NCBI GenBank assembly: GCA_031285625.1
Contig: JAITVV010000028.1
Coordinates: forward strand, 1-27,087
DNA length: 27,087 bases
Reading direction: 5' to 3'
Source: Prevotella sp.
GTDB lineage: Bacteria > Bacteroidota > Bacteroidia > Bacteroidales > Dysgonomonadaceae
The notes under the pieces are model-generated. The model was not told the origin of the DNA, searched no databases, and worked only from the letters and a program-made list of their open reading frames with translations. Both the position numbers and the translations under genes were made by a program. Position 1 is the stretch's first letter, and each line of letters begins with the position of its first letter. Of this stretch, positions 8,273-26,706 are shown piece after piece.

Positions 8273-8302
8273 AAAGCCCGTTTCCAAATTGAGACAGGCT
8301 TT
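8273..8302 (-). terminator. Probable intrinsic terminator of the 8331-10652 gene
   Basis: Imperfect inverted repeat AAAGCCCGTTTC / GAGACAGGCTTT just past the stop codon. Confidence 0.5.
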
Positions 8303-8330
8303 CATTTACAATATAACGATCAACTGGATT

Positions 8331-10652
8331 TTATTTTTTTGCTCCCGACATTATGCCGGCATCAGTATCTGCATTATTGATACGTCTGCCGTTTCCGTTA
8401 AACTGCCGGCCAAAATTGATATTGAAAGAAAACTTAACAAATAACAAAGGTGTGAGATCATAACCTGTCAGTTGTGATTTACTGGAGTACAGATTCGACC
8501 ATGATTCGTTTCTGGTTTTATAATCTGTTCCTAATGGATTCATCGCCCCCACCATTACAGAATAACTGGGCTTATTATATCCGACAGATGCCATATGGAG
8601 TGCCTCTCCCTGATACATAGACTCTCCATAAAACCAATTATTTGCCGTGGTTGCCCAAAAGTTCATAATCCAGTTTTTGTACATAACATCTATATTGATG
8701 CGCATATAAGGATTGGTATAATTATGCTTATAGTTATTACCGTAGCTTCTGTAATAATTAATACCCGGCGTAATACCAATTGTCAGATGATCTTTTAGCG
8801 GACGTATTTTGAAGGTAGATTCTACATTTAACCGTTGATAGCTTTTTTGATTTTCCGGCATCTTAATAAACTTGCCATTCTCCAGGAAGATACTCTCCAT
8901 TACAGGTTTACGTAAATATTTATATCCAGCATTAAGATCTACACCCAGAATCCCTTTGTTGTACCCAAAAGTTAAGTTTGCTCCGTAGTCGAGATACGAT
9001 TTCAGATTAGGGTTTCCTCTACGTATCTGCAATGAATCAACAGCCTGCTCTACATTATTAAGATCTCCCAATGAAGGATTACCACCCCAGATATATGCGC
9101 GCGCCCTTACGAAAGTAAAATCGTTGATATTATAAGCTGTGCTAAAACTAGGACGGAACGTATATTTATCTTGTTGCTCATCACCCTGACGATAGTAAGT
9201 GCGCATAACTCCAATATTAGCTGTATAACTAAATTTACCTCTTTTCCAAAGATATTCGGCATAACTATAAATCTCGGATGTATTCATACCTACATTGGCT
9301 GTTGTGTTCCCCGAATAGATGTTATGTGTATAACTTTGACTATATTTCAACCCTCCGGTTAATTTGCTTTTATCAAAATTTTTCTCATATATACCTTCAG
9401 TTATAAGTGAATACCTGTCACCTGATATTTTAGAAAGAATATCCGTTACGGGTATATTTTCCCTGTGCTCCTGATATAGCCTGCTGCTCGAAGAAGTTAT
9501 ATAAGTCCCTACCACATTGAATATCAATAACTGGTTATTTTTTAAGTTTTTCTGAAAGTATAAATCCAGTGCCGGAATATTATTCTTTAAGCTTTGGTGA
9601 TCGTATATATTCAATGGAATAGGATTATCCGATGTAACAAGCGTACTTTTACGGTCGGTATATGCATTGGGCTCTTCGTTGAAATTATACCTGAACCTGG
9701 CATTAAAGTAATAATTATCTTTATCAAGAAGACTATAGTTTATTGTCGTATTAATAACATTCTGCTTGAATTTTGTAGGCAATCCATCTTCAACCCTTTC
9801 CAACTCTTTATCTGAAAATCTGAATGTTTCATCATTTTTTCGTGTCCAGTCAAAATTACGGTTACTTGCATATATATTAGTTGAAAATTCTGATTTTCGG
9901 TGATTAAATTTTGCTGATAAAAAATTATCACTAAAAACGGATTTTGCTATTACATTCATCCCATTCCCATTTATATTACCACCCGATTCCCGACGCCTTA
10001 CAATATAGTCAAGTACAGCTTCAGCATTTCCGTAGCGGGCACCCGGCTGGTCATGATATTCGATACGTATAATGTCTTCGGGGCGTAAGGCTACTATTTC
10101 GCTGTTTGTAACTTCTACTCCGTTAATTCTCAGTTGCAATTCTCCATTTCCGGCTAATGCAACCTTATTATTTATAAAGTCGTATGTAAGACGGGGCAGT
10201 TGCATTTTCTGTAATAACTCTATACCATTAGCAGAAGCTTTTATTTGCGCATCGGTAGGCATTATTAGTTTCCTATCCAATTTGTTGATTATAGAATGTC
10301 CTGTAACTGTAACGTCCTGTAAAGCAATTGAGGAGGGATCAAGATAAATATCACCAATATCCAAGTCATCTTTATCTTTCCGAATAGGGATAAGTGTACT
10401 CTCGTACCCTATAAATGTGACAGAGATCAGATAATCACCTTGTTCTATGTTTATAAATGTAAATTTACCATCTACATCAGAATTTACACCTTTGATTAAA
10501 GAGGAGTCACTAGCCATTAATGTAATATTGGCATACTCGATAGGCTTAGAATCTCCTTTATCTATGATCTTGCCTGAAATAATAGGCTGTTGTGCTATAA
10601 TACAATTCGATAATACTAAAAAAAGTGTGAGTGCGAAGATTTTTATTTTCAT
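8331..10652 (-). CDS. Outer-membrane beta-barrel protein (TonB-dependent-receptor-like) with N-terminal carboxypeptidase regulatory-like domain
   Basis: Signal peptide, ISGKIID...PIEYANITL...DGKF domain, plug-like LRPEDIIRIEY segment, GNPNLK motif and amphipathic beta strands; 773 aa. Confidence 0.8.
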   Translation of the reverse strand: MKIKIFALTLFLVLSNCIIAQQPIISGKIIDKGDSKPIEYANITLMASDSSLIKGVNSDVDGKFTFINIEQGDYLISVTFIGYESTLIPIRKDKDDLDIGDIYLDPSSIALQDVTVTGHSIINKLDRKLIMPTDAQIKASANGIELLQKMQLPRLTYDFINNKVALAGNGELQLRINGVEVTNSEIVALRPEDIIRIEYHDQPGARYGNAEAVLDYIVRRRESGGNINGNGMNVIAKSVFSDNFLSAKFNHRKSEFSTNIYASNRNFDWTRKNDETFRFSDKELERVEDGLPTKFKQNVINTTINYSLLDKDNYYFNARFRYNFNEEPNAYTDRKSTLVTSDNPIPLNIYDHQSLKNNIPALDLYFQKNLKNNQLLIFNVVGTYITSSSSRLYQEHRENIPVTDILSKISGDRYSLITEGIYEKNFDKSKLTGGLKYSQSYTHNIYSGNTTANVGMNTSEIYSYAEYLWKRGKFSYTANIGVMRTYYRQGDEQQDKYTFRPSFSTAYNINDFTFVRARAYIWGGNPSLGDLNNVEQAVDSLQIRRGNPNLKSYLDYGANLTFGYNKGILGVDLNAGYKYLRKPVMESIFLENGKFIKMPENQKSYQRLNVESTFKIRPLKDHLTIGITPGINYYRSYGNNYKHNYTNPYMRINIDVMYKNWIMNFWATTANNWFYGESMYQGEALHMASVGYNKPSYSVMVGAMNPLGTDYKTRNESWSNLYSSKSQLTGYDLTPLLFVKFSFNINFGRQFNGNGRRINNADTDAGIMSGAKK

Positions 10653-12100: not shown

Positions 12101-12571
12101 TTATAATGTAGAATTTTCAGTTTCAGTATTTTCTATTGAACACTTTATATTCGGAAATTTAGATAGGTTCTCGTCTGAAACAAATCTCTGGTTAACATGC
12201 CCTATCATTCCGGTCATAGGACTATTAAACATCCATTGGGCAACTCCTTTATCCTTATCTTCCCAAACAATTTTAAATTCATCTATTCCCTCAATAGCAT
12301 CCACAATTCTGGTCTCAATTACGATAGTGTCACCTGCTTGATAAGAACTTATAATTTTATATTTTTCCACATCATTAGTCCTATTTATATAGAGTAAGTC
12401 ATCTCCATCTATTGCCAGTTTCTCTGCATTATCGCAAATATAGTAGGGCACTTCTATATTTAATGCTGTCCACATTACAGGTAATGTCTTATGATCAAAA
12501 GAGTGCTTTGTTTTACCACAACCACCTAAAACTATAAAGAGAATACCTAAAAAGTAGGTTGCTTTTTTCAT
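12101..12571 (-). CDS. Hypothetical lipoprotein
   Basis: Start re-called at ATG 12571 (MKKATYFLGILFIVLGG-C lipobox). Ends 3 nt before the DUF3822 start. Confidence 0.75.
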   Translation of the reverse strand: MKKATYFLGILFIVLGGCGKTKHSFDHKTLPVMWTALNIEVPYYICDNAEKLAIDGDDLLYINRTNDVEKYKIISSYQAGDTIVIETRIVDAIEGIDEFKIVWEDKDKGVAQWMFNSPMTGMIGHVNQRFVSDENLSKFPNIKCSIENTETENSTL

Positions 12572-12736: not shown

Positions 12737-12767
12737 CAAAGATAAACATTATCCTCAAATTCCCAAA
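12737..12767 (-). promoter_or_regulatory. Outward-facing consensus promoter TTTG-N19-TATCTTTG near the ICE end
   Basis: Exact Bacteroides -33/-7 consensus with a 19-nt spacer on the minus strand. Confidence 0.65.
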
Positions 12768-12839
12768 GAGACGGAATATTTTTCATTCGTATTTAGCCTA
12801 TTTTCAAATCTGTTGCTGGCGCAACCATCCATTCTCCGG

Positions 12840-13114
12840 TATCGTTTCCCTTTCCCATTCCTCATTGTCGTAGGTATCCGTCAGGTCGCTGTTTTTCGTT
12901 CGATTGGCAAAGGTATCCCAAAGAGGCGATACGTCAAATCCGGCGCCTTTCAGGTTTTGCCCGAAATCTTCCTCTTTCCCTTCGGGCGAGCGTATTTAGT
13001 GCAAAAAATTTGTCTGTATCACCCCCTCCGACCTTTTACTGCCAATACGAAACAAAAAACAGCCGACCTGACGGATGCCGCAGAAAAAAAAAGTCATGGA
13101 AAAGAGAAACGATA
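12840..13114 (-). promoter_or_regulatory. Long imperfect foldback, candidate ssDNA (Frpo-like) promoter
   Basis: Nested arms 12840-12858/13096-13114, 12873-12888/13064-13079, ATTGGCA/TGCCAAT and GCCCGAA/TTCGGGC. The left arm carries TTTG-N19-TACCTTTG on the minus strand (12938-12908). Confidence 0.6.
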
Positions 13115-13359
13115 GAACGAAACAAAGCAACCTCACTTCTGGAATTAACATAAAATTTGTATTCAGGTTGGCATGTATAGTAGTATGTGTATGGCTACTG
13201 ACAAAAGTTAGTGTTGCTGCATGGTCATTCTTGGGTATGGTGGTTATATACCTGTTTATCCGCTTACTGATCAAGTGTGTATTCAAACTGATTGGCATCC
13301 TTATCTCTGTTTTTCTTTTTCTGCTTATCGCTTCATTAATTACAGTATTCATCTTCTAA
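13096..13359 (+). CDS. Small membrane protein, hypothetical
   Basis: ATG at 13096 after an A-run (alternative start 13075); two to three hydrophobic segments. Confidence 0.55.
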   Translation: MEKRNDRTKQSNLTSGINIKFVFRLACIVVCVWLLTKVSVAAWSFLGMVVIYLFIRLLIKCVFKLIGILISVFLFLLIASLITVFIF

Positions 13360-13370
13360 CATTTACTATC

Positions 13371-13964
13371 ATGGATTACAAATCATTACCGGTATACGAA
13401 AAATTGAAAAGAATACAGGAACTTAACTTCTGTCGTGCGGAACGGCACAACGTGGCAGTATATCTAAGTGCATTAAGGCACAACGACAGGCAGGTCATAG
13501 ACGAATACGAGCGTTTCGGCGATAGCCCACGCCAGCTGCTGATGAACAAACGGGAGTACGAAAGGCATTTACTGTTCGGCTTCACCGGGATAGCGTTTAA
13601 CGAATACGGCTGGCTGGCAAATCCCGAGTTCCTGGAACGTGAGGAAATACAGTTTCCCCACAGGAACGGCTGGGCGGTATCAAACTATATCACATTGGGT
13701 ATGGGATTGAACGGCAAATGGACATACGGCATGAGGTATTCTTACAGCACAGGCGGACATGGCTACGGGCTGAATGTATGGGGAAAGCTGTTCGACAACA
13801 GAAAGGATTGCCTGAAAGCTGCTTTAGACGAAATGATGACAGGGCTTGATAAGGACAGCGCTAAGACCGATAAATACGCCATAATCGTTTTGAAGCAAGT
13901 TAAAAGCCTCTTTGATGAAATCACAGGACGCAAAGCCATCCAGTTATCACTGTCATTTTTCTGA
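13371..13964 (+). CDS. ICE hypothetical protein (197 aa)
   Basis: Start re-called at MDYKSLP (13371) so it does not overlap the upstream gene; ends KAIQLSLSFF. Confidence 0.75.
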   Translation: MDYKSLPVYEKLKRIQELNFCRAERHNVAVYLSALRHNDRQVIDEYERFGDSPRQLLMNKREYERHLLFGFTGIAFNEYGWLANPEFLEREEIQFPHRNGWAVSNYITLGMGLNGKWTYGMRYSYSTGGHGYGLNVWGKLFDNRKDCLKAALDEMMTGLDKDSAKTDKYAIIVLKQVKSLFDEITGRKAIQLSLSFF

Positions 13965-14007
13965 TATTCCTAACAGTCAGTAACAACCAATAATACAATC
14001 AACAGAT

Positions 14008-14688
14008 ATGAAACCAACTAAAATAGCCATCACATACAGGAATAAAGTCTATTTCCTTGACAGGGTAACAACAGAAAGCAAGCATTATCAGATAGGCTTT
14101 GAAGCCGGCAGGTGGAGCATCCACATCTATTTGTTGCAGAATGGTCAGGTACGGGTAATCATCAACAAGTCAGTCAAAAAGAGCGACATGCATTACAGTA
14201 CGCAATTCCATTACGACTGCTATTGTACGCTTGATGCAAACGGCTTATTTCTTAATGATATACACGACCCTGCTACCTGCAAGCGCATATGGAATCAAAC
14301 CAAATGGTTTGTTATCGAACCGATGCTAAAGGCAATATACGTCCAGCTCAAAGACGAACTCAAAGCCCTGCATCCCTTTGACCTGATACACGATATAAGG
14401 GATTTAGTGCAATTCATCTATCGTAAAATGGAAGCATACGGGGAAACAGAATACCAGATAAACAACTCATTGCGTTTCGGTATCGGGGAAAATGCCTGCA
14501 CTACGACGGAAGAAGCCTTGCAAGCCAAAGAAACAGAACCTGTTGTCTTGCTGAACCTGTACAACGGCCATCATGTGATTTCAAAAGATACGGTTGTGTT
14601 TTTTCTGTACTGGCTTTTAGACAGGGATAAGTACCTGAACATATCGGACGGGCAACGGACTAAAACAATCTGTACGAATCCTGAATAA
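14008..14688 (+). CDS. ICE hypothetical protein (226 aa)
   Basis: Long ORF with A-rich translation start context, co-oriented with neighbours; no motif recognised. Confidence 0.7.
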   Translation: MKPTKIAITYRNKVYFLDRVTTESKHYQIGFEAGRWSIHIYLLQNGQVRVIINKSVKKSDMHYSTQFHYDCYCTLDANGLFLNDIHDPATCKRIWNQTKWFVIEPMLKAIYVQLKDELKALHPFDLIHDIRDLVQFIYRKMEAYGETEYQINNSLRFGIGENACTTTEEALQAKETEPVVLLNLYNGHHVISKDTVVFFLYWLLDRDKYLNISDGQRTKTICTNPE

Positions 14689-14720
14689 CGAATATAGCGA
14701 ATATAGTGAATATAACGAAT
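14683..14720. repeat. Degenerate 9-bp tandem repeat GAATATARY
   Basis: GAATAAC-GAATATAGC-GAATATAGT-GAATATAAC-GAAT. Confidence 0.75.
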
Positions 14721-14761
14721 TATTAATCAGGGCGGAGAAGTCCGCCCGCAACACTAAAGCG

Positions 14762-14995
14762 ATGAAACTGAAAATAAATCAAACAGATAAGACCTGCACT
14801 ATCAGCGGGCTGACTCCTACTGAAGCCGATGTGATACTGGCAATCGTGGATACAGCCAACAGGCGGTGCTTCCGAGAACAGGAAGAAAGCGGGGAATGGT
14901 ACAGCAACGATGATTTTATACTGCGCCTGACCGATGAACAGCGTAAAGCATTAGCAAAGGTCGGCGAAGAAATACAGCAAATCTATAACAGCTAA
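14762..14995 (+). CDS. ICE hypothetical protein (77 aa)
   Basis: ORF in operon position with a plausible start. Confidence 0.65.
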   Translation: MKLKINQTDKTCTISGLTPTEADVILAIVDTANRRCFREQEESGEWYSNDDFILRLTDEQRKALAKVGEEIQQIYNS

Positions 14996-15019
14996 CTAAA
15001 CAGAATAACACTTAATATT

Positions 15020-15697
15020 ATGGCACAGGAGAGGATAGACAATTTTATGCAATATGCAAAAGACATAGCCAAAGCCGAAAAGGATTTGAAAATAGAGCAC
15101 TGGGTGTATATTACTTTTGAGATAAGGGACGGGAATGGGAATCGAAACCGTGAAGTACTGTACGAAATAGACCTTCCCCGTAAGATGTTAGACCGTTGGC
15201 GGTGGGTTATCGAGTGGCGCAGGGCAAAGCTGGTATGCAAATACCCACGAAAGAAGATAGAAATATACCATTGCTATTATGACAAGCAGACAGGCTTGCA
15301 GACAGGGTTCAATTTTCTGTTGACAAAAGTAGCTTCTGCCAAAGCGCAGATAACAAGGGTAGAACGGATAATTACCCAATATATAAAGGATGAAACACAA
15401 AACAATTTATTTTTCAATCCTGATACGGATGAGCAGTTATTCAAAGCCAATGCGAAGCTGGAACAGAAGAAGATAAACTATAACGAAGCATACGCCATTT
15501 TACAGGCAGAAGTAGAAAATCATAAACAGAATAAGGATATGTATAAATTATTCGCAGGATTCAGGAAACTGGGTGAGTTCAAAACCATACCGGAAGCCAA
15601 ACGCTTTGCCGACAATAGCGGAGAGGTCGGGGTATTCAACCTGATTGGCGATAAGTATCGGGACAGCTGGTATGTCCCCATGTATATCAATGATTAA
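15020..15697 (+). CDS. Conserved Bacteroidales conjugative-transposon hypothetical protein
   Basis: Patterns AKD.AKAE..LKIE.WV, W.WVI.WR.AKL.C.YP and SAKAQIT..E...QNNLFF..TDE.L resemble a family I recall from CTn termini; function unknown. Confidence 0.8.
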   Translation: MAQERIDNFMQYAKDIAKAEKDLKIEHWVYITFEIRDGNGNRNREVLYEIDLPRKMLDRWRWVIEWRRAKLVCKYPRKKIEIYHCYYDKQTGLQTGFNFLLTKVASAKAQITRVERIITQYIKDETQNNLFFNPDTDEQLFKANAKLEQKKINYNEAYAILQAEVENHKQNKDMYKLFAGFRKLGEFKTIPEAKRFADNSGEVGVFNLIGDKYRDSWYVPMYIND

Positions 15698-15705
15698 TTA
15701 ATATG

Positions 15706-15738
15706 AGTCGGGCGGAACAATCTTCCCGGCTTCTTTTT
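15706..15738 (+). terminator. Probable intrinsic terminator
   Basis: AGTCGGG...CCCGGCT stem followed by TCTTTTT, just after the 15697 stop. Confidence 0.5.
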
Positions 15739-15947
15739 ACAGTGAACCTGAGCGGTCGAAAAAGAGGAGCAAAAAACCGATGCACAAATTCCACCTACTT
15801 TGTTAAACAAAAATATATTTCTGTTTAACAGAGAGGGTGCTTCCGATGCAGCACAAATTCGAGACTGCTTTTAAGGTATTTTGGATAGGATTTTCCCTGT
15901 CCTTTTTTTATGTCTATCTTTACGGCGGATTTAGCCCCTAAAAAATT

Positions 15948-16355
15948 ATGGCAGAAGTATTTTATGATATGTCACATCTGACGACAAATGAACTTCGGGA
16001 GTTGTTTATCTCCTACCGAAAGCTGGGATGGATAGACTATGAATATGACGTATTGGACGAGGACAATCCTCCAGTACAACCTCTTTCGGATGCCGAAATT
16101 ATTCTGAATATCCAAGCTGGGGACGAAAAGAACTACTTTGTTTTCATGCTCGACCACGAGGATGAGAAAGACGGCGTGATGATTGGCTTCGGGTTAAACT
16201 ACCATGAGGATTTCTCGGCATATCTGCATTTGCCCCCCAACTACCTGAAAGAACTTATCGAAAAATATGCACTGGTAAGCAAGGCGACGAATGTTGAGAA
16301 TATGACGGTTGAGCAGTATTTGATAGGGTTGGCGAAAAGTGGGGCGATGAATTAA
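15948..16355 (+). CDS. Acidic hypothetical protein (135 aa)
   Basis: AAAAAATT-ATG start context; strongly acidic; no family recognised. Confidence 0.7.
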   Translation: MAEVFYDMSHLTTNELRELFISYRKLGWIDYEYDVLDEDNPPVQPLSDAEIILNIQAGDEKNYFVFMLDHEDEKDGVMIGFGLNYHEDFSAYLHLPPNYLKELIEKYALVSKATNVENMTVEQYLIGLAKSGAMN

Positions 16356-16419: not shown

Positions 16420-18161
16420 CTATACAAATTCTATTCCGGGTAATCTCATAAAGCAACTGTAATTTTTTTCGTATGTACCATTTCTTGTAAGTTGGGTATT
16501 ACTCGCGGTAAAATAAACCTGCTTTTTGGCTCTGGTTACAGCAACATAAAATACACTTAATTCTTCTAAAAATGCTTTTTCTATTTCACTACTAATCACA
16601 AAAATACAATCTGTGCCACACTTACATTTACTGCATAACCCAAACCAATTAGGAAATGAATCTTTTTCCATATCTGGTAATATCACATAATCCCATTCCA
16701 AACCTTTAGCCGCATGAACTGTAGATATTATAATTTGAATATCTAAAAACTCCATATACTGTTTTATGCCATTATGCTCAAAAGTATCCTTTATTAAGTT
16801 GATTTTGTCTTCGTTAGGAAGGAATGAATAATCAGCAACAGTGCTTTTATAACAGGAGAATCTTTATCTACATATATCTCTTTAATTTTATCTATATGCT
16901 TTCGACTTAATTTCTTCGTAATCTTTGTACTTATTTTGAGGAATTCAATAAATTCATAAAGACATTTCCTATTGAATTGCAAATACTCTGCATCATCATC
17001 AGTGAATAAGCCATAAAAGAAAGAAATTTTATTGTGGTCAAATGTTTTAATAATATGTTCGATATTTGGCCCTCTTTGTTTTGCTAATATTGCAACTTTA
17101 GAAGTTGGATGCAGACCCTGTATCTCTTGTGATTTTATTACCACCTCTAAAGCTTCCTTTACCTGATCCTCATAGATGTTAAATTCTATTTTTGAACTTA
17201 AAGCATTGGGGTTCTCGAATGGAGTAATTGCATTTTGCCTAATTATTTTATCCAATTGGAGCATATTTTCATTTGATGCAAATCTATAGTTTCTATCTAA
17301 TGAAATAAGTTTAAGTTTAAAATGGCTTTGGGCTCTACTTAATAAATTTGGCACTGCACCTATGAAACCATAAATTCTTTGTAAGGAGTCCCCTAAAAAA
17401 AGTACATTTGATTTATCCGAAATTAAATAGTTCAGAAGCCAATAACTTAACAAATTTGTATCTTGAAACTCATCAACAAGTATAGTTGTGTAATAATTTT
17501 GGTAAAATGATAAGACACTTGGATGCTCTTGAAATAATTTAATGGTTAATGTTATAATTGCATTAAAAGGTATAGCTTCTTTTTGCAATATCTCAGCAAT
17601 TACTACGGAGTTATATCCATTAATATTTTCCCTTAAATAAGTTCCTTTTATTTCTCTTACTGCAGAATTATAATTAGATAAAACATCAGCATCATTTATT
17701 GAAATGTTTTTAAATGACCGCATGATATTATCACTTCTGCTATCATCTATCGGTTGTAATGTGTCTAATTTAGATAAAGCTGGGTGTAATATGTGTCCGT
17801 ATTTTTTCAATACACTTCGGCAAAATCCATGATAATTAGATATATATGTTTTTTCTTTAATGTTTATTTGTTTGTCAAGCCCATCTAACAATTCTGGGAT
17901 ATTCTTACTTACATCTTTCTTTATCTTATAAGCAGCATTGACACTAAAAGTGAGTGCTAATAATCTTTTGGGTACAGGGATTTGCCCTATTGCAATCAAG
18001 TATGCAATCCTGCTTACCATTGTGTGAGTTTTACCATATCCTGCCGGAGCTTCAACTAAGAGACGTTTGTCAGGGGAGAAAATCACTTCTAATTGCTTAC
18101 TATCTCCTTGATGCTTTTCCTCTATTCGGGATTTAATAACAGATATTTCTTCGGGACTCAT
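16420..18161 (-). pseudogene. gajB: UvrD/Rep-family helicase (Gabija GajB-like), split by a frameshift
   Basis: 5' ORF (18161-16794) has APAGYGKT, VDEFQD, GDSLQRIYGF and NYRF. 3' ORF has STVHAAKGLEWD and YVAVTRAK. The -1 frame near 16840 reads continuously (ADYSFLPNEDKINLIKDTFEHNGIKQYMEF). ATGA overlap with the upstream nuclease. Confidence 0.75.
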
Positions 18162-19882: not shown

Positions 19883-19904
19883 GACGCTTAATTTAAAATC
19901 GTCA

Positions 19905-19934
19905 CAAAAATACGCATATAAAAACACCTGACAA
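19905..19934 (-). promoter_or_regulatory. Promoter of the gajAB cassette (TTG-N19-TATTTTTG)
   Basis: TAnnTTTG match 22 nt upstream of ATG 19882, with TTG at a 19-nt spacing. Confidence 0.55.
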
Positions 19935-19978: not shown

Positions 19979-20089
19979 CTATTCTACCTCCTCCCCCCAC
20001 AACTCCACATCCGTCTTAGCATTCCGGCAGGCGACATACGCCCAACCATCAACTACGGTAGCGAACAAAATGTAGCATAGAATAAACAT
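19979..20089 (-). CDS. Putative 36-aa peptide coupled to traQ
   Basis: TGATG stop/start overlap with traQ; MFILCYILFATVVDGWAYVACRNAKTDVELWGEEVE. Confidence 0.3.
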   Translation of the reverse strand: MFILCYILFATVVDGWAYVACRNAKTDVELWGEEVE

Positions 20090-20538
20090 CATATCCCCGA
20101 AGTTTCAGTTTCTACCTCCTCTTCCGTTGTCTCATTGTTGAACGTGAATATCAAAGGAAATTCCCTTCCAAAACTATCGAAGAATACCACTTCTACATTA
20201 TGCGCATCTTCTGACATGGAACGAAAATACAGCCTGAAAGAAATATCTGTTATTTCGTATGCATCATTCGGAAGAAATGGCTCATCATCATTCATCCATA
20301 AGAGACCGGAGCCATCATATTGGAAGTAACGCAGATAGTAGCGGGTATTGTCGTATTCGCCCTGCCGGTGCAGCGTACAGCGTATTTCGGCTACCTCATT
20401 CACCTGTAGCTTTTTCGGCACAGGCAGGTGAGAGACCGAGAATTCATAATCCTGCATAATATCAATATCGTCGCTACAGGCACACGCTATCGCAGCCAGC
20501 AATAGCGTAAAAATAATATAGGATGCACATTTTCTCAT
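20089..20538 (-). CDS. traQ: Conjugative transposon lipoprotein TraQ (DUF3872)
   Basis: Lipobox then DDIDIMQDYEFSV.HLPVPK, EIRCTL and RYFQYDG.G. Confidence 0.88.
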   Translation of the reverse strand: MRKCASYIIFTLLLAAIACACSDDIDIMQDYEFSVSHLPVPKKLQVNEVAEIRCTLHRQGEYDNTRYYLRYFQYDGSGLLWMNDDEPFLPNDAYEITDISFRLYFRSMSEDAHNVEVVFFDSFGREFPLIFTFNNETTEEEVETETSGI

Positions 20539-20567
20539 TTTGTTTTATTTTTTTAGATGTTAAATAT

Positions 20568-21155
20568 TTAATTCAGGATAAACTTGATACCTCCGCCTAT
20601 TTGGGTATGAAACAGGTTAATGGAGGAACCGCCCAGAATACGTTCCCTGACAGTGAGCAGCAATACAATACGGTCGGATAAGTATGTTTCCACCTCGAAT
20701 GTTACCGCCCCGCCGTACAGGAAATTATCCTCACTGCTAATGGTAGCCCCATCGAACAGGAGCTTCTCTCCCCAGTTCACCGTTTCGTACCCCGCCATCG
20801 CCGAAGCTCCGATAGAGAAGAAAACCGTCTTGCTCGGGTCGCTCAGGAACTTGTAGTAATACCCGCCCTCTACTGTGAATTGGACGGTTGGTATCAACTC
20901 CGTTTTATATTGGTAGGACTTTTGCAGGTACTCCCCGCCGAATACCCAGCGGTTGCCGTTCTTCGTGTAGGTGGTAAGGGCGATACCGCCCGCAAAGGCT
21001 TGTTTGTTCCCCTTTTCCAAATAGAAGCCATCTACCGCACTTGCTGTTACTTGTAGTCCTTTCTGTCCCGGCAAATAACGCTGAGCGTGTGCCTGCCCAC
21101 AGAGGGCAAGGCTCAATGAAAAGGCCAATGTGATTATTAATGTTATTCTGTTCAT
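20568..21155 (-). CDS. traO: Conjugative transposon protein TraO
   Basis: AHAQRYLPGQKG, QFTVEGGY, GYETVNWG; position after traN. Confidence 0.92.
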   Translation of the reverse strand: MNRITLIITLAFSLSLALCGQAHAQRYLPGQKGLQVTASAVDGFYLEKGNKQAFAGGIALTTYTKNGNRWVFGGEYLQKSYQYKTELIPTVQFTVEGGYYYKFLSDPSKTVFFSIGASAMAGYETVNWGEKLLFDGATISSEDNFLYGGAVTFEVETYLSDRIVLLLTVRERILGGSSINLFHTQIGGGIKFILN

Positions 21156-21197
21156 CTGTTTTTATATTATATCTGTTAACAGAAGGGTCTGTGACCC

Positions 21198-22208
21198 TTA
21201 CTTTATTTTCAGTTCGTTGATTTGTTTAGCACAAATAAGGTCGGTGTTCTCAATGGTAAAGGTCTGGTTCCGTCCGCCGTTCTTCTCAAAGACTTCAATA
21301 ATCAGTTGCTTGTCGGCAGGAATCGTGATTTTGTCCAATGCGAACACCGTGCGTTCCATCTGATTAGCCCCAACGGATGAAACGAAGTTGTAGGAACGAA
21401 GCGGATAGATAACCGTTTCCTGCATACTGGTTCGTTTCGCCAGCTTCTTATCAACGATTTTCATCCGCACAAAATCAATATCGAAGGATACATTGGTGGA
21501 GTTCTGAATCTGTGTATGCAGGTACAGGAGGTTGTTGTGCGAATAAACCCCTTTCAGGGTATACCGGATACCGAAACGTTTTCCGCCGATGTGCTTGATG
21601 TGGCGTTTGTTGTCGGTGTATATGGCACGGTTTATCAGGTACACAATGCGGGGCGATTCACTGCCGAGTTCTTTCAGATAGATGTCTAAACTGTTATTCG
21701 GACGGTTGGTAGCGATGCCATCGTGCATAAAGTCCTTCATTTCAATGTTGAGCTTTTCCGGCTCGTCCGCATATTTTACATTATAGGTGTAATAGCTTCC
21801 TTCGTCCGTAATCACGGCAAGGTTGGTTTCTGTTTCAAAGCCCCGGATAGCTGCTTTGACTCGCAGGATATTTTCCGAAGTACCCGCCTTGCCTGCAATG
21901 ATATTCGCCGAACCCAAGTCCACATAACGGATGGACGAGGGAAAGATGATATGCACCGTTTTGTCAAATGTAACCTCCAGTCCATAAGGCGGTATCATCC
22001 GGTCAAAGGTGATTTTCTTGGTCAAGCCTTCGTAATAATCCCCGAATGTGGGATTGAGTACTTGCTGCAGGTCTTCCTGCATCTCTTCCGGTGTTTTATT
22101 GACAACAGGAATCGTATCGTTATTTTCTTTTCCTGTATTGTTTTCTGTCTGTGCATTGGCTGTAATCGTTGTTACCGCCAAAGCGAATAATAAAATGTAC
22201 TTTTTCAT
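21198..22208 (-). CDS. traN: Conjugative transposon protein TraN
   Basis: FDRMIPPYGLEVTFDKTVHIIFP, YVDLGS and EKNGGR. Confidence 0.93.
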   Translation of the reverse strand: MKKYILLFALAVTTITANAQTENNTGKENNDTIPVVNKTPEEMQEDLQQVLNPTFGDYYEGLTKKITFDRMIPPYGLEVTFDKTVHIIFPSSIRYVDLGSANIIAGKAGTSENILRVKAAIRGFETETNLAVITDEGSYYTYNVKYADEPEKLNIEMKDFMHDGIATNRPNNSLDIYLKELGSESPRIVYLINRAIYTDNKRHIKHIGGKRFGIRYTLKGVYSHNNLLYLHTQIQNSTNVSFDIDFVRMKIVDKKLAKRTSMQETVIYPLRSYNFVSSVGANQMERTVFALDKITIPADKQLIIEVFEKNGGRNQTFTIENTDLICAKQINELKIK

Positions 22209-22251
22209 TTTTCTTTTTTATTTATTTGATTATTAAAATGTTTGTTGAATC

Positions 22252-22283
22252 CATTGGCACATTGGCACATCTTCACATTGGCT
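22252..22283. repeat. Octamer tandem repeat (CATTGGCA-like x4) between traM and traN
   Basis: CATTGGCA CATTGGCA CATCTTCA CATTGGCT. Confidence 0.75.
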
Positions 22284-22285
22284 AA

Positions 22286-23629
22286 TTAGTCTTGTTTAGG
22301 AAGCAACATCACCCGATAGCCGCTTTTCAGATGCACTTTCACCTGTCTGATTTTCTTCTGCATATACTGGCTGACACCCTGTATCGCCCCTTTGGTCAGG
22401 TCGGAGGTAATCTGTGCTCCCGCATCATCGGTTATCGTGAAGCCCGAACCGACCGAGCTTCCCATATTGGCGGCAATCTCCTTGACAGCATCCAGTTCCA
22501 GCGAGTTCGGAATAAAAATGCCCCGCTGCCCGTCCGAATCGTAAATGTCGATTTCCACCGGGATAATCGCCCCGCCCAACTCAATGGAATTGATGGAGAT
22601 ACCCAGCCGTTCGCCTTGCAGAGCCGCCGTTCCCGTCAAAATGGAGTTGGCGGGGATGACCGTTGTTCCCGCAATCAGGGCTTCGGTCAGTCGCAAACGG
22701 ACACTTTGCCCGCTGATAAGCGTCTGGTCATCGTGTATCACCGCCGAAATGGTATTTTTCTCATTTACCCCGGCAGTGGCCTCCATTGTGTTAAATCCCA
22801 TATTGCGGGGCTGGTTGAAGCCTGCGATAAACTCAGTATTGGGAATATGCTGTGCCAGTGCCGATACCGTTTGTTCCCGCACCTGCTTGATAACCGATAC
22901 CTGCGTCCTGTCATTCCTGCCACTGTTGTTGGAGGAAGAATTGGCTTGAGAGCCTCCAGCTTCCAATGTTATAGATTCACTCTTTGCCGATTGTCCTTGC
23001 GGGGTTTGTCCACCCGGCATATACTTAGCTGCCAGCTGGTAGGATTTTTCGATAAGAGCCAGCTGGTCATTGGCAGCATCCTGCTTGGTGGTTTCCTCTT
23101 CCAATTTGCGTTCCAGCTCCTGCATACGCCATTCGAGGGCAAGCTGTGCCTGTTCATCTACCTCTGTGGCGGGCTCTTCATAGAAATTGCTCAAGGTGCT
23201 GCTGATATTCCGGTAGGAAGATGCCGAGTTACGAATGGCATCATCCGAAGGCGCACTTTTCCGGCTTATTTTCTCTTCGGTAATCCCAATCACATTTCCG
23301 TCTATCGCCTCCTGCTCGTCCCCGATAAGGGAAGAGAAGTCTTCGAGCGATTTACGCTTATTATCCCTGTTGTGCATCAATGCTTCCTGTTCATAGGCTT
23401 TCTGCTTGTCGCCGATGATTCCCTGATTGTTCGGGTCGGGGATTTCGGTATTGAAGCCCTGTCCCTGTTCTTCTTTTTCCTTATCGGAAGACGAGGGTGC
23501 GAAAATCAGGTACAATACGCCCAAAAAGATAATGCCGATAAGGGCGAAGAAACCATATTTTTTTAACAGTTGCTTCTGCTTCTCTTTCTCCTGCTGCTCA
23601 TCCCCTGTTTTTTCCTGTTCTTTTTTCAT
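22286..23629 (-). CDS. traM: Conjugative transposon protein TraM
   Basis: N-terminal TM, GFNTEIPDP, SYQLAAKYMP, GQSVRLRL, YDSDGQRGIFIP and VKVHLKSGY. Confidence 0.93.
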   Translation of the reverse strand: MKKEQEKTGDEQQEKEKQKQLLKKYGFFALIGIIFLGVLYLIFAPSSSDKEKEEQGQGFNTEIPDPNNQGIIGDKQKAYEQEALMHNRDNKRKSLEDFSSLIGDEQEAIDGNVIGITEEKISRKSAPSDDAIRNSASSYRNISSTLSNFYEEPATEVDEQAQLALEWRMQELERKLEEETTKQDAANDQLALIEKSYQLAAKYMPGGQTPQGQSAKSESITLEAGGSQANSSSNNSGRNDRTQVSVIKQVREQTVSALAQHIPNTEFIAGFNQPRNMGFNTMEATAGVNEKNTISAVIHDDQTLISGQSVRLRLTEALIAGTTVIPANSILTGTAALQGERLGISINSIELGGAIIPVEIDIYDSDGQRGIFIPNSLELDAVKEIAANMGSSVGSGFTITDDAGAQITSDLTKGAIQGVSQYMQKKIRQVKVHLKSGYRVMLLPKQD

Positions 23630-23993
23630 TGCTTATTAAAAATTTGTCGTTTATACTATCTATATTATCTGTGTCTTGCAGGTAGAGTTCTATATCGACC
23701 GGAGAATCCATTAATTCCATCCTGTTGATATTGTCGCTATCATTCTCTGCGTCAGAGTCCATAATACCCAAGCCCTCTATATGCTGCATTTCGGGAATTT
23801 CTTGTCTTCCGTCCCTATGTCCCCAGTTGTATATAGTGAAGATGGAGAAATACAGATTCCCTATGGTAAATATCAGCAGCATGGAGAGGATGACCATCAG
23901 CCGTGCATCTTCCGAAAGCCCTCCGCATATCCGGCGGAGTCTGTCATTGATGCTATATCCCAGTTCTTTGAAAATATGCTTTAAATACTTCAT
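23598..23993 (-). CDS. traL: TraL-family conjugative transposon protein
   Basis: LRRICGGLS..ARL.VIL plus a TM and MQHIE; located between traK and traM. Confidence 0.75.
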   Translation of the reverse strand: MKYLKHIFKELGYSINDRLRRICGGLSEDARLMVILSMLLIFTIGNLYFSIFTIYNWGHRDGRQEIPEMQHIEGLGIMDSDAENDSDNINRMELMDSPVDIELYLQDTDNIDSINDKFLISNEKRTGKNRG

Positions 23994-24004
23994 AGCCTTG
24001 TGGA

Positions 24005-24631
24005 TTAGCGTTCAACGGTCAGGATGTCCTTATTCTCCCTTATCTCGAAATTCTCCATAAAGAAGCCGTGAGGGTTATCGTCCGAACGGGAGGTATTCAA
24101 CAATTGGCAAGTAGTAACCAACGAGCGTTCCGTCAAATTACTTTCCCTTATGATAATCTGCCGGGCATAAGTCGCTACCTGGTAGGGGTACACATCAAAG
24201 TCGCATTTGATACTGTCCACAATCACGTTCTGGATGATATTGCCGGAGATGATACGATTGTAATACCCCTTTTCCGCCCAGTCCTTGTAATAATTAAAGG
24301 CGGTCTTGTCACACAGCACCATTGCCCGCTGAATATTGCTTTCTATCGCATTCTTGTCGGGCGAGAGGGTAAAGAACAATTCGTGAAAGCGTTTGACATG
24401 TTCCCGCGCTTCGACAGGTCTGTTTTGCGACAAGTCCTGCGAGAGAGCCAGCATCAAGGATTTTCCTTCGTCCAGCACATAGATTTTCTCCCTTTGCTTT
24501 TCAGCAAAACCGTAGGCGCTCCATACGGAATATCCCGCGACTATGGCACACAGGCAAAGGGATACGATGCTGAACAGCCTGATTTGCCGGAAACTGGTTT
24601 CTATATTTTTTAAACTTTTAAATTCCATCAT
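24005..24631 (-). CDS. traK: Conjugative transposon protein TraK
   Basis: MEFKSLKNIETSFRQIR, HVKRFHELFFTLSPD and RSDDNPHGF. Confidence 0.95.
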   Translation of the reverse strand: MMEFKSLKNIETSFRQIRLFSIVSLCLCAIVAGYSVWSAYGFAEKQREKIYVLDEGKSLMLALSQDLSQNRPVEAREHVKRFHELFFTLSPDKNAIESNIQRAMVLCDKTAFNYYKDWAEKGYYNRIISGNIIQNVIVDSIKCDFDVYPYQVATYARQIIIRESNLTERSLVTTCQLLNTSRSDDNPHGFFMENFEIRENKDILTVER

Positions 24632-24733
24632 ACTAATGTGATAATTTGAGAATATGCCGATATGCCAATGGTAATTACCGAGCCGTGTAATTATCCGTCC
24701 ATTGGCACACCGGCCTGTTAAACTATTGGCTCC

Positions 24734-25831
24734 TTAAGTTCTCTCCGGAGAGTTGGAGTTTCTGCCATTTGTAGAGTAGTTTCGTCCCTGAGGCTGGCTG
24801 CCATTGCTGCTACCGGAATTTCCGCTATTGCCTCCGGAACCACTGCTTTTTAGTCTTCCTACAATATTTCCACCTGCTGCACCGGCTCCGGCACCTGCCA
24901 CGGAAGCGCCCTTAGATGTGGACTGGTTGACGTTCTTACCGTAGTTACCCATACCACCCGCTTGGATGATCCATCCTGCAACAGTCGGAATGGTGAAGAA
25001 TCCCACAATGCCGATGAGCAGGAAGACCACATATACGCCGTCCGAAGCATCCAGTGAATAGTTCGGATCTTCCTGCATACGGAGAATGTCGCTTTCCAGC
25101 ATCCGCACTTGGAGCCGCGCCATAATGGAACTGAACAAGTCCGATACGGGAAGCCACAGATAAACGCTGACATAGCGTGTGAGCCACTGGACAAGCGTCG
25201 ATTGGAAGCCATCGAAGACCGATATGGCAAAAGCTATCGGCCCCAGTATGGCAAGCACAATCAGGAAGAACGTCCGTATCACATCTATTATCAGGGCGGC
25301 GGCGTTAAACAGCGTTTCCAAAAACGAGCGGAACAAACCCTGAAACCATTTCTTCATATCGTAGAAGGAGCGCTCTATATACATCCCCGCTATTTCCGGC
25401 GCATCCGTGATGCCCAGTTCTTCCAGTTTCTTGTCGAACTCCGCCTGATCGACCAAATAAGCGGTTTCCTTGTTCCGCTTCTTCTGTTCGATTTCGAGCT
25501 TGTCATTGGTCTCCGCCAATGCCTGCATATCCAGTGTCTGCTGTCCCAAGATACCGTGTGCACCCTGTACGACCGGATTGAGGATAGAGTTTACCGTACC
25601 CAGCACCAATGTAGGGAAGAACATAATGCAGATACCGATAGCAAAAGGGCGTAAGAGCGGATACACATCTATCTGTTCTGCCCGAGCGATGCTTTGCCAT
25701 ACACGGGACGAGACATAGAGCAATGCTCCGATACCGGCGATGCCTTTGGCTACCCCGATAAGGTCGCCGCAGAGCGGCATCATGTCGTTGTAGAGGTCGC
25801 GGAGTATCTGATGAATACTTTCAAAATCCAT
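24734..25831 (-). CDS. traJ: Conjugative transposon protein TraJ (VirB6-like)
   Basis: AKGIAGIGAL, IDVYPLLRPF, FDGFQSTL.QW..RY.SVYLWLPVSD; low-complexity G/S/N tail. Confidence 0.95.
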   Translation of the reverse strand: MDFESIHQILRDLYNDMMPLCGDLIGVAKGIAGIGALLYVSSRVWQSIARAEQIDVYPLLRPFAIGICIMFFPTLVLGTVNSILNPVVQGAHGILGQQTLDMQALAETNDKLEIEQKKRNKETAYLVDQAEFDKKLEELGITDAPEIAGMYIERSFYDMKKWFQGLFRSFLETLFNAAALIIDVIRTFFLIVLAILGPIAFAISVFDGFQSTLVQWLTRYVSVYLWLPVSDLFSSIMARLQVRMLESDILRMQEDPNYSLDASDGVYVVFLLIGIVGFFTIPTVAGWIIQAGGMGNYGKNVNQSTSKGASVAGAGAGAAGGNIVGRLKSSGSGGNSGNSGSSNGSQPQGRNYSTNGRNSNSPERT

Positions 25832-25840
25832 AAATTTTTA

Positions 25841-25980
25841 ATTTGAAGATTTGACAAATAACATTCGCCGAAGCGAATGCGAGGCAATTAGCAAATTCGG
25901 AAATGAAAAAACATTTGCTAATCTCCGAATTTGCTCATTTGCTCATTGTTGACTGTTAACTGCTCACTGTTAACTGTCCA
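25841..25980. repeat. Composite intergenic repeat: octamer-based inverted repeat, 29-nt insert, heptamer array
   Basis: AGCAAATTCGGA/TCCGAATTTGCT arms (25890-25901/25924-25935); five YTG-start heptamers at 25946-25980; insert at 25859-25887. Confidence 0.7.
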
Positions 25981-26610
25981 TTACCAGTACCTGTCGTTTT
26001 CGTCCCCGTACAAGTCCAGTACACGCCCGGTCGTATTTTTCTCCTTTGCCCGGAGCAGGGAGACGGAGATATTCTTGTTGGTATAGTACTTTACCAAAGA
26101 GCGGTATTCCAGCATCTTGTTGTAGGCATTGTCTATCACCTCCATCCGCTCCTTATCCGAGAGGGACAGGGTGCTGACGTTCACTATCCCCTTGAGTTCC
26201 TGCAACACGTCATCCGATTCGTTGAGCAGCTTGGTGTAGCCGTCTGCGATAGCTACCAGTTCCTCTACCGTAAAATTGTCATCGGAGAGCATATTCTCAA
26301 AGCTGTTTACATAGATGTCGGTAATCTCACCCACCAAGAGGATGGTTTTCTGCACTTTCTTGGCATCCTTTACCATGTTGTTTACCTTTTTCAGGGCATC
26401 GTAGTATTCTTTTCCCTGATTGTATACCTTTTGAACCTCCTTAAAGTTGTTCAGCATGTTGGTAGCCGTACTGGAAGTCTGCACGATGTTTTTAGTGGCA
26501 TTGATAATGCCCTGCGCCAGATTACCCGGGTCACTTACGACCCACTGGGCTTTCGCCCCCGTTACGGCAAGCATACAGCTTACGCATAACATGAAAATTC
26601 TTATCTTCAT
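25981..26610 (-). CDS. traI: DUF4141 conjugative transposon protein (TraI)
   Basis: AQWVVSDPGNLAQ, GKEYYDALK.VN and YYTNKNISVS; upstream of traJ. Confidence 0.88.
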   Translation of the reverse strand: MKIRIFMLCVSCMLAVTGAKAQWVVSDPGNLAQGIINATKNIVQTSSTATNMLNNFKEVQKVYNQGKEYYDALKKVNNMVKDAKKVQKTILLVGEITDIYVNSFENMLSDDNFTVEELVAIADGYTKLLNESDDVLQELKGIVNVSTLSLSDKERMEVIDNAYNKMLEYRSLVKYYTNKNISVSLLRAKEKNTTGRVLDLYGDENDRYW

Positions 26611-26706
26611 ATTCACTTGTTTTTAATTAATAAATTACTGATTAATAAACTCTTGTTTACTCTTTGTCTTTCGTTTTTTCTGTATTCTCGTTATCGTGGT
26701 TTACCC

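What the first reader, a model, noticed from the sequence alone, without database searches (positions are those of the whole stretch)
12840..13114. Candidate Bacteroidetes single-stranded-DNA promoter for zygotic expression of ICE genes
Seen: a ~275-nt nested foldback. The left arm has a perfect TTTG-N19-TACCTTTG on the minus strand. The right arm has only a degenerate plus-strand copy (TTTG...GACCTTTT, ~13009-13037). Of the wobble-type mismatches I checked, four are G.T on the minus strand and two on the plus. Established: Frpo/ssi-type promoters work only when the transferred strand folds, and in CTnDOT oriT lies between mob and tra. Inference: the minus (tra-sense) strand is transferred; folded, it presents the consensus as non-template and the right arm as template, giving RNA from ~13045 into the plus-strand genes only in a new recipient. 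I know of no description of such a promoter using the Bacteroidetes -33/-7 consensus.
Basis: partly seen in the sequence, partly recalled or inferred. Interest (0 to 1): 0.85.

Follow-up and report, generated by a model that had tools for sequence, protein, structure and literature searches.

The report
Hairpin promoter before ICE anti-restriction genes
A long DNA hairpin conserved in many Bacteroidales conjugative elements looks built to act as a promoter only when one strand is single-stranded, switching on anti-restriction and establishment genes, but whether that strand is the one transferred is still unproven.

Summary
The foldback at 12840-13114 is real and is one member of a large conserved family. 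Both strands fold far better than shuffles (z -8.0 and -8.7). In 77 of 77 relatives the minus strand folds better. G.T wobbles favour the minus strand 424 to 116. Sixteen of 31 consensus pairs show compensatory changes.

The Bacteroidetes -33/-7 consensus sits on the left arm in minus sense. It is exact in 55 of 83 relatives and one letter off in 26 more. The plus strand almost never carries it (1 of 83).

Folded, the minus strand would direct transcription rightwards into genes that start at the hairpin base. In relatives these genes are ArdA (4 loci), ArdC (2), ParB-like, PcfK/PcfJ and SLOG proteins. In the window they are proteins of no known family.

The element lies beyond traQ and converges on the tra operon in 38 of 39 cases.

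My best reading is a Frpo-like single-stranded-DNA promoter (confidence 0.5). The weak point is the premise that the minus (tra-sense) strand is the one transferred. I could not establish it. Relaxase-operon architecture favours it. The gene order of a CTn341-like element, combined with a second-hand account of an Hfr-type transfer, argues against it. No description of such an element turned up in the literature searches.

The parts
12840..13114 (-). Whole imperfect hairpin of about 275 nt. The minus strand is the better-folding strand.
   Evidence: DNA folds. Minus strand more stable in 29 of 29 and 48 of 48 relatives. Covariation.
12908..12938 (-). Consensus Bacteroidetes promoter TTTG-N19-TACCTTTG on the left arm. 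In the folded minus strand this arm would be the non-template strand.
   Evidence: Exact match. The -7 box is exact in 31 of 35 and 24 of 48 relatives. One-letter variants at the same place account for 4 and 22 more.
13009..13044 (+). Right-arm counterpart (TTTG, 17 nt, GACCTTTT, then TACTGCCAA). It lacks TAnnTTTG and carries about 4 extra bases opposite the -7 box. In the folded minus strand this arm would be the template.
   Evidence: Sequence. Alignments. Plus-sense TAnnTTTG found in 1 of 35 and 0 of 48 relatives.
12966..12997 (.). Apical core: ATCTTCCTCTTTCC, a small variable-loop hairpin, then GCGAGCGTATTT. It is the most conserved part of the element.
   Evidence: 89-97% identity across genera. 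24 specified bases match exactly in at least 119 stretches from many Bacteroidales and related families. Pairs AAAT/ATTT, CTC/GAG and CC/GG.
12945..12955 (.). Small side hairpin H1 (CC-TTTCA-GG) followed by a T run. Its structure, not its sequence, is kept among relatives.
   Evidence: Read from the alignment (for example CCC/GGG against CAC/GTG and TCC/GGA). Not scored formally.
13096..13359 (+). First gene, a small hydrophobic protein. The ORF may start at 13075. Its first codons form the base of the hairpin.
   Evidence: ORF list. No Pfam, NCBIfam or PHROG family. A homologous first gene is seen in many relatives.
13371..16355 (+). Five further plus-strand ORFs of unknown family: 13371-13964, 14008-14688, 14762-14995, 15020-15697 and 15948-16355. 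They would be transcribed from the hairpin.
   Evidence: no family found. Atlas neighbours of the 13371-13964 product are unnamed Bacteroidota clusters.
20089..26616 (-). tra operon (TraQ, O, N, M, L, K, J, I-like), convergent with the hairpin operon. It fixes the element's orientation within the ICE.
   Evidence: Pfam and NCBIfam matches.

Best explanation
The element is a strand-specific, single-stranded-DNA promoter of the Frpo kind, adapted to the Bacteroidetes -33/-7 promoter type.

Proposed mechanism:
1. When the minus strand is single-stranded it folds into a hairpin of about 275 nt.
2. The left arm supplies the consensus TTTG-N19-TAnnTTTG as the non-template strand.
3. The right arm is the template. 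It has a few extra bases opposite the -7 box, so that box sits in a bulge or internal loop.
4. Host RNA polymerase would start near 13042-13048 and transcribe rightwards into genes that begin at the hairpin base.
5. In double-stranded DNA the rightward direction has no consensus promoter, so the operon would be largely silent once the element is established.
6. If the minus (tra-sense) strand is the transferred strand, this gives a burst of expression in a new recipient.

Shown: the fold, its covariation, the strand bias, the promoter placement and the kinds of downstream genes.

Inferred: that polymerase uses the fold, that the double-stranded form is silent rightwards, and that the folding strand is the transferred one.
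For: 1. Fold: z -8.0 and -8.7.
2. Covariation on 35 relatives: 93.6% of cells paired against 82.0% in shuffles. 126 cells changed on both sides against 39. None of 500 shuffles reached the observed value on any of the five measures. With partners slid by 1-3 columns, 31-58% of cells pair.
3. Strand bias: the minus strand is more stable in 29 of 29 and 48 of 48 relatives. Minus-strand G.T wobbles number 218 against 52 and 206 against 64. The aligner scored all transitions alike.
4. Promoter placement: the -7 box in minus sense on the left arm is exact in 31 of 35 and 24 of 48. A one-letter variant at the same place adds 4 and 22 more. One is displaced and one is absent. Plus-sense TAnnTTTG anywhere in the 286 nt occurs in 1 of 35 and 0 of 48. 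Columns of the -33 box covary with the other arm, UA 18 against AU 17.
5. Gene placement: the first ORF starts 92-153 nt after the core anchor in 35 of 37 loci and 90-160 nt in 35 of 43.
6. Downstream genes in relatives: ArdA as first ORF in 4 loci and ArdC in 2. Others carry ParB-like, PcfK/PcfJ, YpsA-SLOG and DUF3873 proteins.
7. Orientation in the ICE: opposite to tra and convergent with traQ in 38 of 39 cases within 20 kb (hand tally).
8. Precedent: Frpo stem-loops rebuild promoter boxes, drive leading genes and are switched off by conversion to double strand (passages read).
Against: The transferred strand of CTnDOT-type elements is not established by anything I could read.
- The conserved oriT-like block is nearly two-fold symmetric. 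The few wobbles in its hairpins point both ways.
- In a CTn341-like element, int (locus tag 3354) and rteA/B/C (3370-3373) lie on the mob side of oriT, and traA-Q are 3381-3397. A citing paper says the Hfr-type transfer of int-disrupted CTnERL was scored with a marker 20 kb from oriT. If that marker lay on the mob side, the plus strand leads and this reading fails for recipients.
- On the tra-first order, the hairpin operon would enter only after the whole tra operon, here 7-14 kb and elsewhere more. That is not at the very front, unlike F.
- The left-arm promoter would also fire leftwards from double-stranded DNA. In some relatives two HTH_17 genes lie there, so part of its conservation could be ordinary.
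- The window's own downstream genes have no known function.
- The relatives are kin, so the counts overstate independence.
Confidence: 0.5

Rival explanations
1. It is the same folded-strand promoter, but it works on the strand that is NOT transferred. The retained strand would be exposed in the donor while the other strand is unwound and exported. Alternatively some other state exposes the minus strand. Donors in the act of transfer would then make ArdA, ArdC, ParB-like and the other proteins, perhaps for export with the DNA.
For: All structural evidence of the best explanation applies unchanged. The indirect hints that the mob side leads would put the folding strand on the retained strand. 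Passages read state that in F donors the helicase makes single-stranded DNA faster than it is exported or complemented. A listed abstract (mBio 2021) reports transfer of SSB, ParB-like and PsiB proteins through an F-type secretion system.
Against: I know of no precedent for a promoter on the retained strand. ArdA in a donor has no obvious use unless it is exported, and that is not shown for these proteins. Replacement synthesis normally follows unwinding closely.
Confidence: 0.15
2. It is an ordinary double-stranded control region. A strong leftward promoter makes an RNA or serves leftward genes. A weak non-consensus rightward promoter serves the operon. The long palindrome is an operator or a by-product of duplication.
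For: The consensus promoter is a perfectly normal double-strand promoter pointing left. In L038, L039 and L041 two HTH_17 genes lie on that side. A second full consensus promoter lies 170 nt further left in the window and shares part of its spacer.
Against: Leftward neighbours differ among loci: a lipoprotein gene here, HTH_17 pairs, a cNMP-binding regulator, UmuD, or a co-directional helicase. Yet the box is kept in all contexts. A double-strand operator does not explain the roughly 4 to 1 wobble bias towards one strand. Nor does it explain covariation over arms of more than 100 nt, or hairpins in the apex whose loop lengths vary.
Confidence: 0.15
3. It is a single-strand origin: a priming site for synthesis of the complementary strand, as in rolling-circle plasmids and ICEBs1. 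It would not be a promoter for genes.
For: It is a strand-specific long hairpin with a promoter-like site. A review read cites a single-strand origin in ICEBs1. Frpo itself was described as serving both transcription and priming (title cited). Copies also occur in small islands without tra genes.
Against: The predicted transcription runs away from the apex and straight into ORFs that begin at the hairpin base in 70 of 80 loci. A mere priming site would not need that. This reading needs the same unproven strand assignment.
Confidence: 0.08
4. It is an RNA-level element. Minus-sense read-through transcripts coming from the tra and Gabija side would fold into the hairpin, which would act as a terminator, a stabiliser or a processing site.
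For: G.U pairs are well tolerated in RNA. The tra and Gabija genes are minus-sense and point towards the hairpin. An Rfam scan places a chance-level hit to a long-hairpin model on the minus strand over exactly 12839-13115.
Against: Such an RNA would have to cross 3-4 kb of antisense operon. This reading does not explain the conserved promoter boxes, their spacing, or the bulge at the -7 box. No Rfam family reaches its threshold.
Confidence: 0.06

Closest known systems
Frpo / ssi single-stranded-DNA promoters of F and ColIb-P9 leading regions
   Same: A non-coding stretch whose single strand folds into a long stem-loop that rebuilds the host promoter boxes. It lies directly upstream of establishment and anti-restriction genes (ardA, ssb and psiB there; ArdA and ArdC here in relatives). 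The folded strand is the template for those genes. Conversion to double strand is predicted to silence it.
   Different: Different promoter type: the -33 TTTG and -7 TAnnTTTG of the Bacteroidetes primary sigma factor instead of -35/-10. There is a highly conserved branched apex with no described counterpart. The element lies beyond the far end of the tra operon, not next to oriT. The transferred strand is not known. Sequence likeness to Frpo was not tested.
Single-strand origins (ssoA/ssoU of rolling-circle plasmids, sso1 of ICEBs1)
   Same: A strand- and orientation-specific imperfect hairpin of 150-300 nt that would be recognised by host RNA polymerase on single-stranded DNA.
   Different: As I recall, in ssoA a short primer is made towards a conserved loop element. 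Here the start points away from the apex into coding sequence, and the element always abuts a gene start.
Ordinary Bacteroides -33/-7 promoters
   Same: The left arm carries an exact consensus with 19-nt spacing.
   Different: It points away from the conserved genes. It is embedded in a covarying hairpin with a one-strand wobble bias, and its mirror copy is kept non-consensus.

Membership tests
Frpo/ssi-type ssDNA promoter | The single strand folds into a long, stable stem-loop | tested here: met
   z -8.0 and -8.7. Covariation score 0.330 against 0.128 in shuffles and at most 0.082 when partners are slid.
Frpo/ssi-type ssDNA promoter | The stem rebuilds the host's two promoter boxes at proper spacing, on the arm that acts as non-template | tested here: met
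   TTTG-N19-TACCTTTG on the left arm in minus sense. The -7 box is exact or one letter off in 81 of 83 relatives. The -33 columns are paired and covary.
Frpo/ssi-type ssDNA promoter | The folding strand is the transferred strand and the element lies in the leading region | tested here: inconclusive
   The oriT-like block is two-fold symmetric. Indirect hints conflict. The primary papers are not held.
Frpo/ssi-type ssDNA promoter | Directly upstream of early establishment or anti-defence genes, with the folded strand as their template | tested here: met
   The first ORF starts at the hairpin base in 70 of 80 loci. ArdA is first in 4 loci and ArdC in 2; others have ParB-like, PcfK/J and SLOG proteins. 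The window's own genes are of unknown family.
Frpo/ssi-type ssDNA promoter | Recruits RNA polymerase as single-stranded DNA and is silent as double-stranded DNA | not testable with these tools
   No RNA run was listed for this DNA. This needs in vitro transcription or a mating time course.
Frpo/ssi-type ssDNA promoter | Sequence homology to F Frpo | not tested
ssoA-type single-strand origin | Primer synthesis directed towards a conserved apical loop element, independent of neighbouring genes (feature recalled, not read here) | tested here: not met
   The -7 box points away from the apex towards the hairpin base and an ORF start.
Origin of transfer (oriT) | Lies beside the relaxase gene and carries the conserved nick region | tested here: not met
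   In relatives the conserved oriT-like block lies between traA and mobA, 13-20 kb away. By eye it does not resemble the hairpin core.
Miniature inverted-repeat transposable element | Many dispersed copies in unrelated contexts | tested here: not met
   Two copies in the window's own genome, both before homologous genes in mobile islands. Elsewhere the element keeps fixed synteny with traQ.
Any Rfam RNA family | Score at or above the family's gathering threshold | tested here: not met
   0 matches at gathering thresholds. The best sub-threshold hit scores 31.6 bits against a threshold of 245, to a plant miRNA precursor model.

The most novel reading that the evidence does not exclude
The folding strand is the strand that stays behind. 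The hairpin would then be a single-stranded-DNA promoter on the non-transferred strand, firing in the donor only while the element is being unwound for export. Anti-restriction and establishment proteins would be made exactly in transferring cells, and perhaps shipped with the DNA. This would follow if the mob side of CTnDOT-type elements enters first, as the Hfr-type account hints.
Probability: 0.13. Interest if true: 0.9.

Novelty: new variant of a known kind. Interest (0 to 1): 0.77.

Why it matters
Single-stranded-DNA promoters are documented experimentally only for enterobacterial plasmids. There they time the first gene expression after DNA entry and protect the incoming DNA.

The conjugative elements of Bacteroidales are main carriers of gene flow in the gut. 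Nothing I could find describes how they express anti-restriction genes early. Full-text searches for Frpo or "ssDNA promoter" together with Bacteroid- returned no relevant paper.

A conserved, easily recognised element before ArdA, ArdC and ParB-like genes, built on a different promoter grammar, would have three consequences:
- It would extend the principle to another phylum and another sigma factor.
- It would give a sequence marker for "early" genes of unknown function, including the six in this window.
- It would make the direction of transfer of these elements directly testable, because the element predicts which strand enters.

Tried and rejected
- Known RNA or tRNA: no tRNA. No Rfam family at threshold. 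Only a chance-level long-hairpin hit in the permissive scan.
- oriT or an att site at the hairpin: rejected. A separate conserved oriT-like block lies between traA and mobA in relatives. Genus-wide core homology ends near 12105, so the hairpin lies about 740 bp inside the element.
- Transposable-element copy: rejected.
- Inferring the nicked strand from the oriT hairpins of 21 variants: led nowhere. IR-B is always perfectly paired, and the few wobbles in IR-A and IR-C point both ways.
- A hairpin near a Mob_Pre relaxase, which might have fixed the strand: none lies within 20 kb of one.
- Other long hairpins in the ICEs: the repeat tool at the settings found none. It also missed this hairpin at those settings, so the blank means little.
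- RNA-seq: no RNA holder was listed.
- Plasmid collection: one match (Phocaeicola massiliensis record OY725985.1), with the same layout as the ICEs.
- Function of the window's downstream proteins: Pfam, NCBIfam, PHROGs, PADLOC and one Atlas look-up gave nothing.
- Papers not held: Peed 2010, Whittle 2006, Nguyen & Vedantam 2011, Li 1995 and Bacic 2005.
- Earlier findings of this scan: none for this genome.

Full report
**Context.** The window is a whole contig.
- Positions 1 to about 12100 carry core genes: GroEL, a YkuD transpeptidase, an outer-membrane protein, RsmD and DUF3822. Genus-wide homology ends near 12105.
- From there on the DNA is mobile:
  - a lipoprotein gene (12101-12571, minus strand) found in no other genome of the genus;
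  - the foldback (12840-13114);
  - six plus-strand ORFs of no known family (13096-16355);
  - a Gabija pair on the minus strand;
  - TraQ, O, N, M, L, K, J and I-like genes on the minus strand.
- This is the traQ-distal end of a CTnDOT-type conjugative element. The relaxase and oriT lie on other contigs.

- As single-stranded DNA, the plus strand of 12840-13114 folds at -54.3 kcal/mol and the minus strand at -61.2. The z-scores are -8.0 and -8.7, and no shuffle folded as well.
- TTTG-N19-TACCTTTG is exact at 12908-12938 on the minus strand. The full consensus pattern occurs twice in the window against 0.21 expected.
Its spacer is 17 nt.

**It is a family, not a one-off.**
- A second copy lies in a small integrase-bearing island of the same genome.
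- In the same bacterial family, 49 of 170 genomes have a match, often several.
- The apical core (12966-12997) is the best-kept part. A pattern of 24 specified bases matches exactly in at least 119 stretches. The records are titled Dysgonomonas, Bacteroides, Phocaeicola, Alistipes, Parabacteroides, Petrimonas, Proteiniphilum, Paludibacter, Prevotellaceae, Prolixibacteraceae and others.

**Structure is under selection.**
- On 35 non-redundant relatives aligned in minus sense, RNAalifold found 31 pairs, 16 of them with compensatory changes.
- Counted with controls, 93.6% of cells pair against 82.0% in shuffles (0 of 500 as high).
- 126 cells changed on both sides against 39.
- The covariation score is 0.330, against 0.128 in shuffles and at most 0.082 when partners are slid. 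With partners slid by 1-3 columns, 31-58% of cells pair.
- The alignment covers the inner two thirds of the hairpin. The outer arms align poorly and were assessed only sequence by sequence.

**One strand is favoured.**
- With DNA parameters the minus strand is the more stable in 29 of 29 and in 48 of 48 further elements at most 90% identical to the earlier set and to each other.
- I aligned each left arm to the reverse complement of its right arm, with a score that treats all transitions alike. Positions that are G.T on the minus strand number 218 against 52 on the plus strand, and 206 against 64 in the second set.
- The relatives are kin, so these are not independent events. The bias is nevertheless seen in each of the divergent lineages.

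**Promoter anatomy.**
- The -7 box TAnnTTTG stands on the left arm in minus sense in 31 of 35 relatives. The other four are near-misses.
- In the second set it stands there in 24 of 48. A further 22 have a one-letter variant at the same place, 1 has it displaced and 1 lacks it.
- In plus sense the motif occurs anywhere in the 286 nt in 1 of 35 and 0 of 48.
- The right arm carries a few extra bases exactly opposite the TTTG of the -7 box. In the fold that box therefore lies in a bulge or internal loop, flanked by covarying GGGC/GCCC pairs.
- The -33 box is paired and covaries.
- Folded, the minus strand would therefore present a consensus promoter whose template is the right arm. RNA would start near 13042-13048 and run rightwards.

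**What it would switch on.**
- The first ORF begins 92-153 nt after the core anchor in 35 of 37 loci and 90-160 nt after it in 35 of 43. That is at the base of the hairpin.
- The first gene is ArdA in four loci (L031, L134, L147, L164) and ArdC in two related loci (L037, L042).
- Other loci have a small membrane protein followed by a protein of about 330 residues, then PcfK and PcfJ. Others have DUF3873 with a ParB-like protein, or a YpsA-SLOG protein.
- ArdA is the classic gene expressed by zygotic induction in ColIb-P9 (passage read).
- The window's own six genes are of unknown function.

**Position in the element.** Thirty-nine hairpin hits share a contig with a TraQ match within 20 kb.
- In 38 of them the hairpin lies on the opposite strand and converges on traQ.
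- In the one exception a second hairpin and two integrase genes lie in between (hand tally).
- About 29 further hits had no TraQ match within 20 kb, many of them at contig ends.
- Where a PF03432 relaxase was found beyond the tra operon on the same contig (six elements, and a Phocaeicola record), it lies on the same strand as the hairpin genes.

**The weak link is which strand is transferred.** The intergenic region between traA and mobA holds a conserved block with three covarying hairpins. The block is nearly two-fold symmetric, and the few wobbles point both ways. The sequence alone therefore does not tell the nicked strand.

For the tra-sense (window minus) strand:
- The mob operon has the order accessory protein (NikA/MobC-like), PF03432 relaxase, coupling protein. 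As I recall, this is the order of IncP- and IncI-type relaxase operons, and those enter last.
- A preprint read gives the usual definition of the leading region as the side opposite the relaxase. It warns that this is unverified where oriT lies between the mating-pore operon and the relaxase gene.

Against the tra-sense strand:
- Locus tags in a paper on B. fragilis HMW615 place int and rteA/B/C on the mob side of oriT. The same paper says the Hfr-type transfer of int-disrupted CTnERL was scored with a marker 20 kb from oriT. If that marker lay on the mob side, the mob side leads.
- I also recall, without having read it here, that the CTn341 oriT was placed within 100 bp of mobA.
- The primary papers are not held.

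**Verdict.** The anatomy matches a single-stranded-DNA promoter of the Frpo kind point for point, apart from the unproven strand assignment. I put 0.5 on the zygotic reading, 0.15 on the same device acting on the retained strand, and the rest on ordinary double-strand control, a priming site or an RNA element. Supplementary tables of the Nature 2024 paper on leading regions, which I could not open, may list candidate promoters from Bacteroidota. Its main text has no occurrence of "Bacteroid".

Noticed in passing
window 16420-18167 (minus strand): The Gabija helicase GajB is split into two ORFs. ORF 16794-18167 matches profile positions 4-445 of 587 and ORF 16420-16755 matches 473-582, so the gene looks interrupted. 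GajA (18158-19927) is intact, E 2.6e-220.
   Followed up: partly
window 12737-12767 (minus strand): This is the only other full TTTG-N19-TAnnTTTG in the window. It lies 170 nt left of the hairpin promoter, in front of a 32-codon ORF and the lipoprotein gene 12101-12571. It shares CTCTTTGGGA with the hairpin promoter's spacer, so it may be a partial duplicate.
   Followed up: partly
L005 4331-11000 (own genome, contig C28): A small island holds a tyrosine integrase, an ArsR-like regulator and a 922-residue SF1 helicase with anti-phage-type matches. It also has a second copy of the hairpin with the same two first genes. No tra gene or relaxase is nearby.
   Followed up: partly
L036 about 8300-8600 (G032:C1 near 360436): A remnant keeps only the apical core and the small side hairpin. 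In place of the left arm stands an integrase, RhuM-like and YhcG-nuclease cassette ending in a terminator. This suggests another element inserted beside the core.
   Followed up: no
L047:4300-5010 and homologues (traA-mobA intergenic region of relatives): A conserved oriT-like block has three covarying hairpins and a nearly two-fold symmetric centre. A consensus TACCTTTG promoter pointing at mobA lies upstream of it, so the block is also part of the mob leader RNA.
   Followed up: partly
L059 17500-19932 (G033:C114): UmuD-like and UmuC-like genes and a small endonuclease-like gene lie on the minus strand immediately left of that element's hairpin, divergent from the hairpin operon.
   Followed up: no
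window 15792-15839: A 24-nt perfect-spacing inverted repeat (83% complementary) lies just upstream of the last plus-strand ORF, 15948-16355.
   Followed up: no
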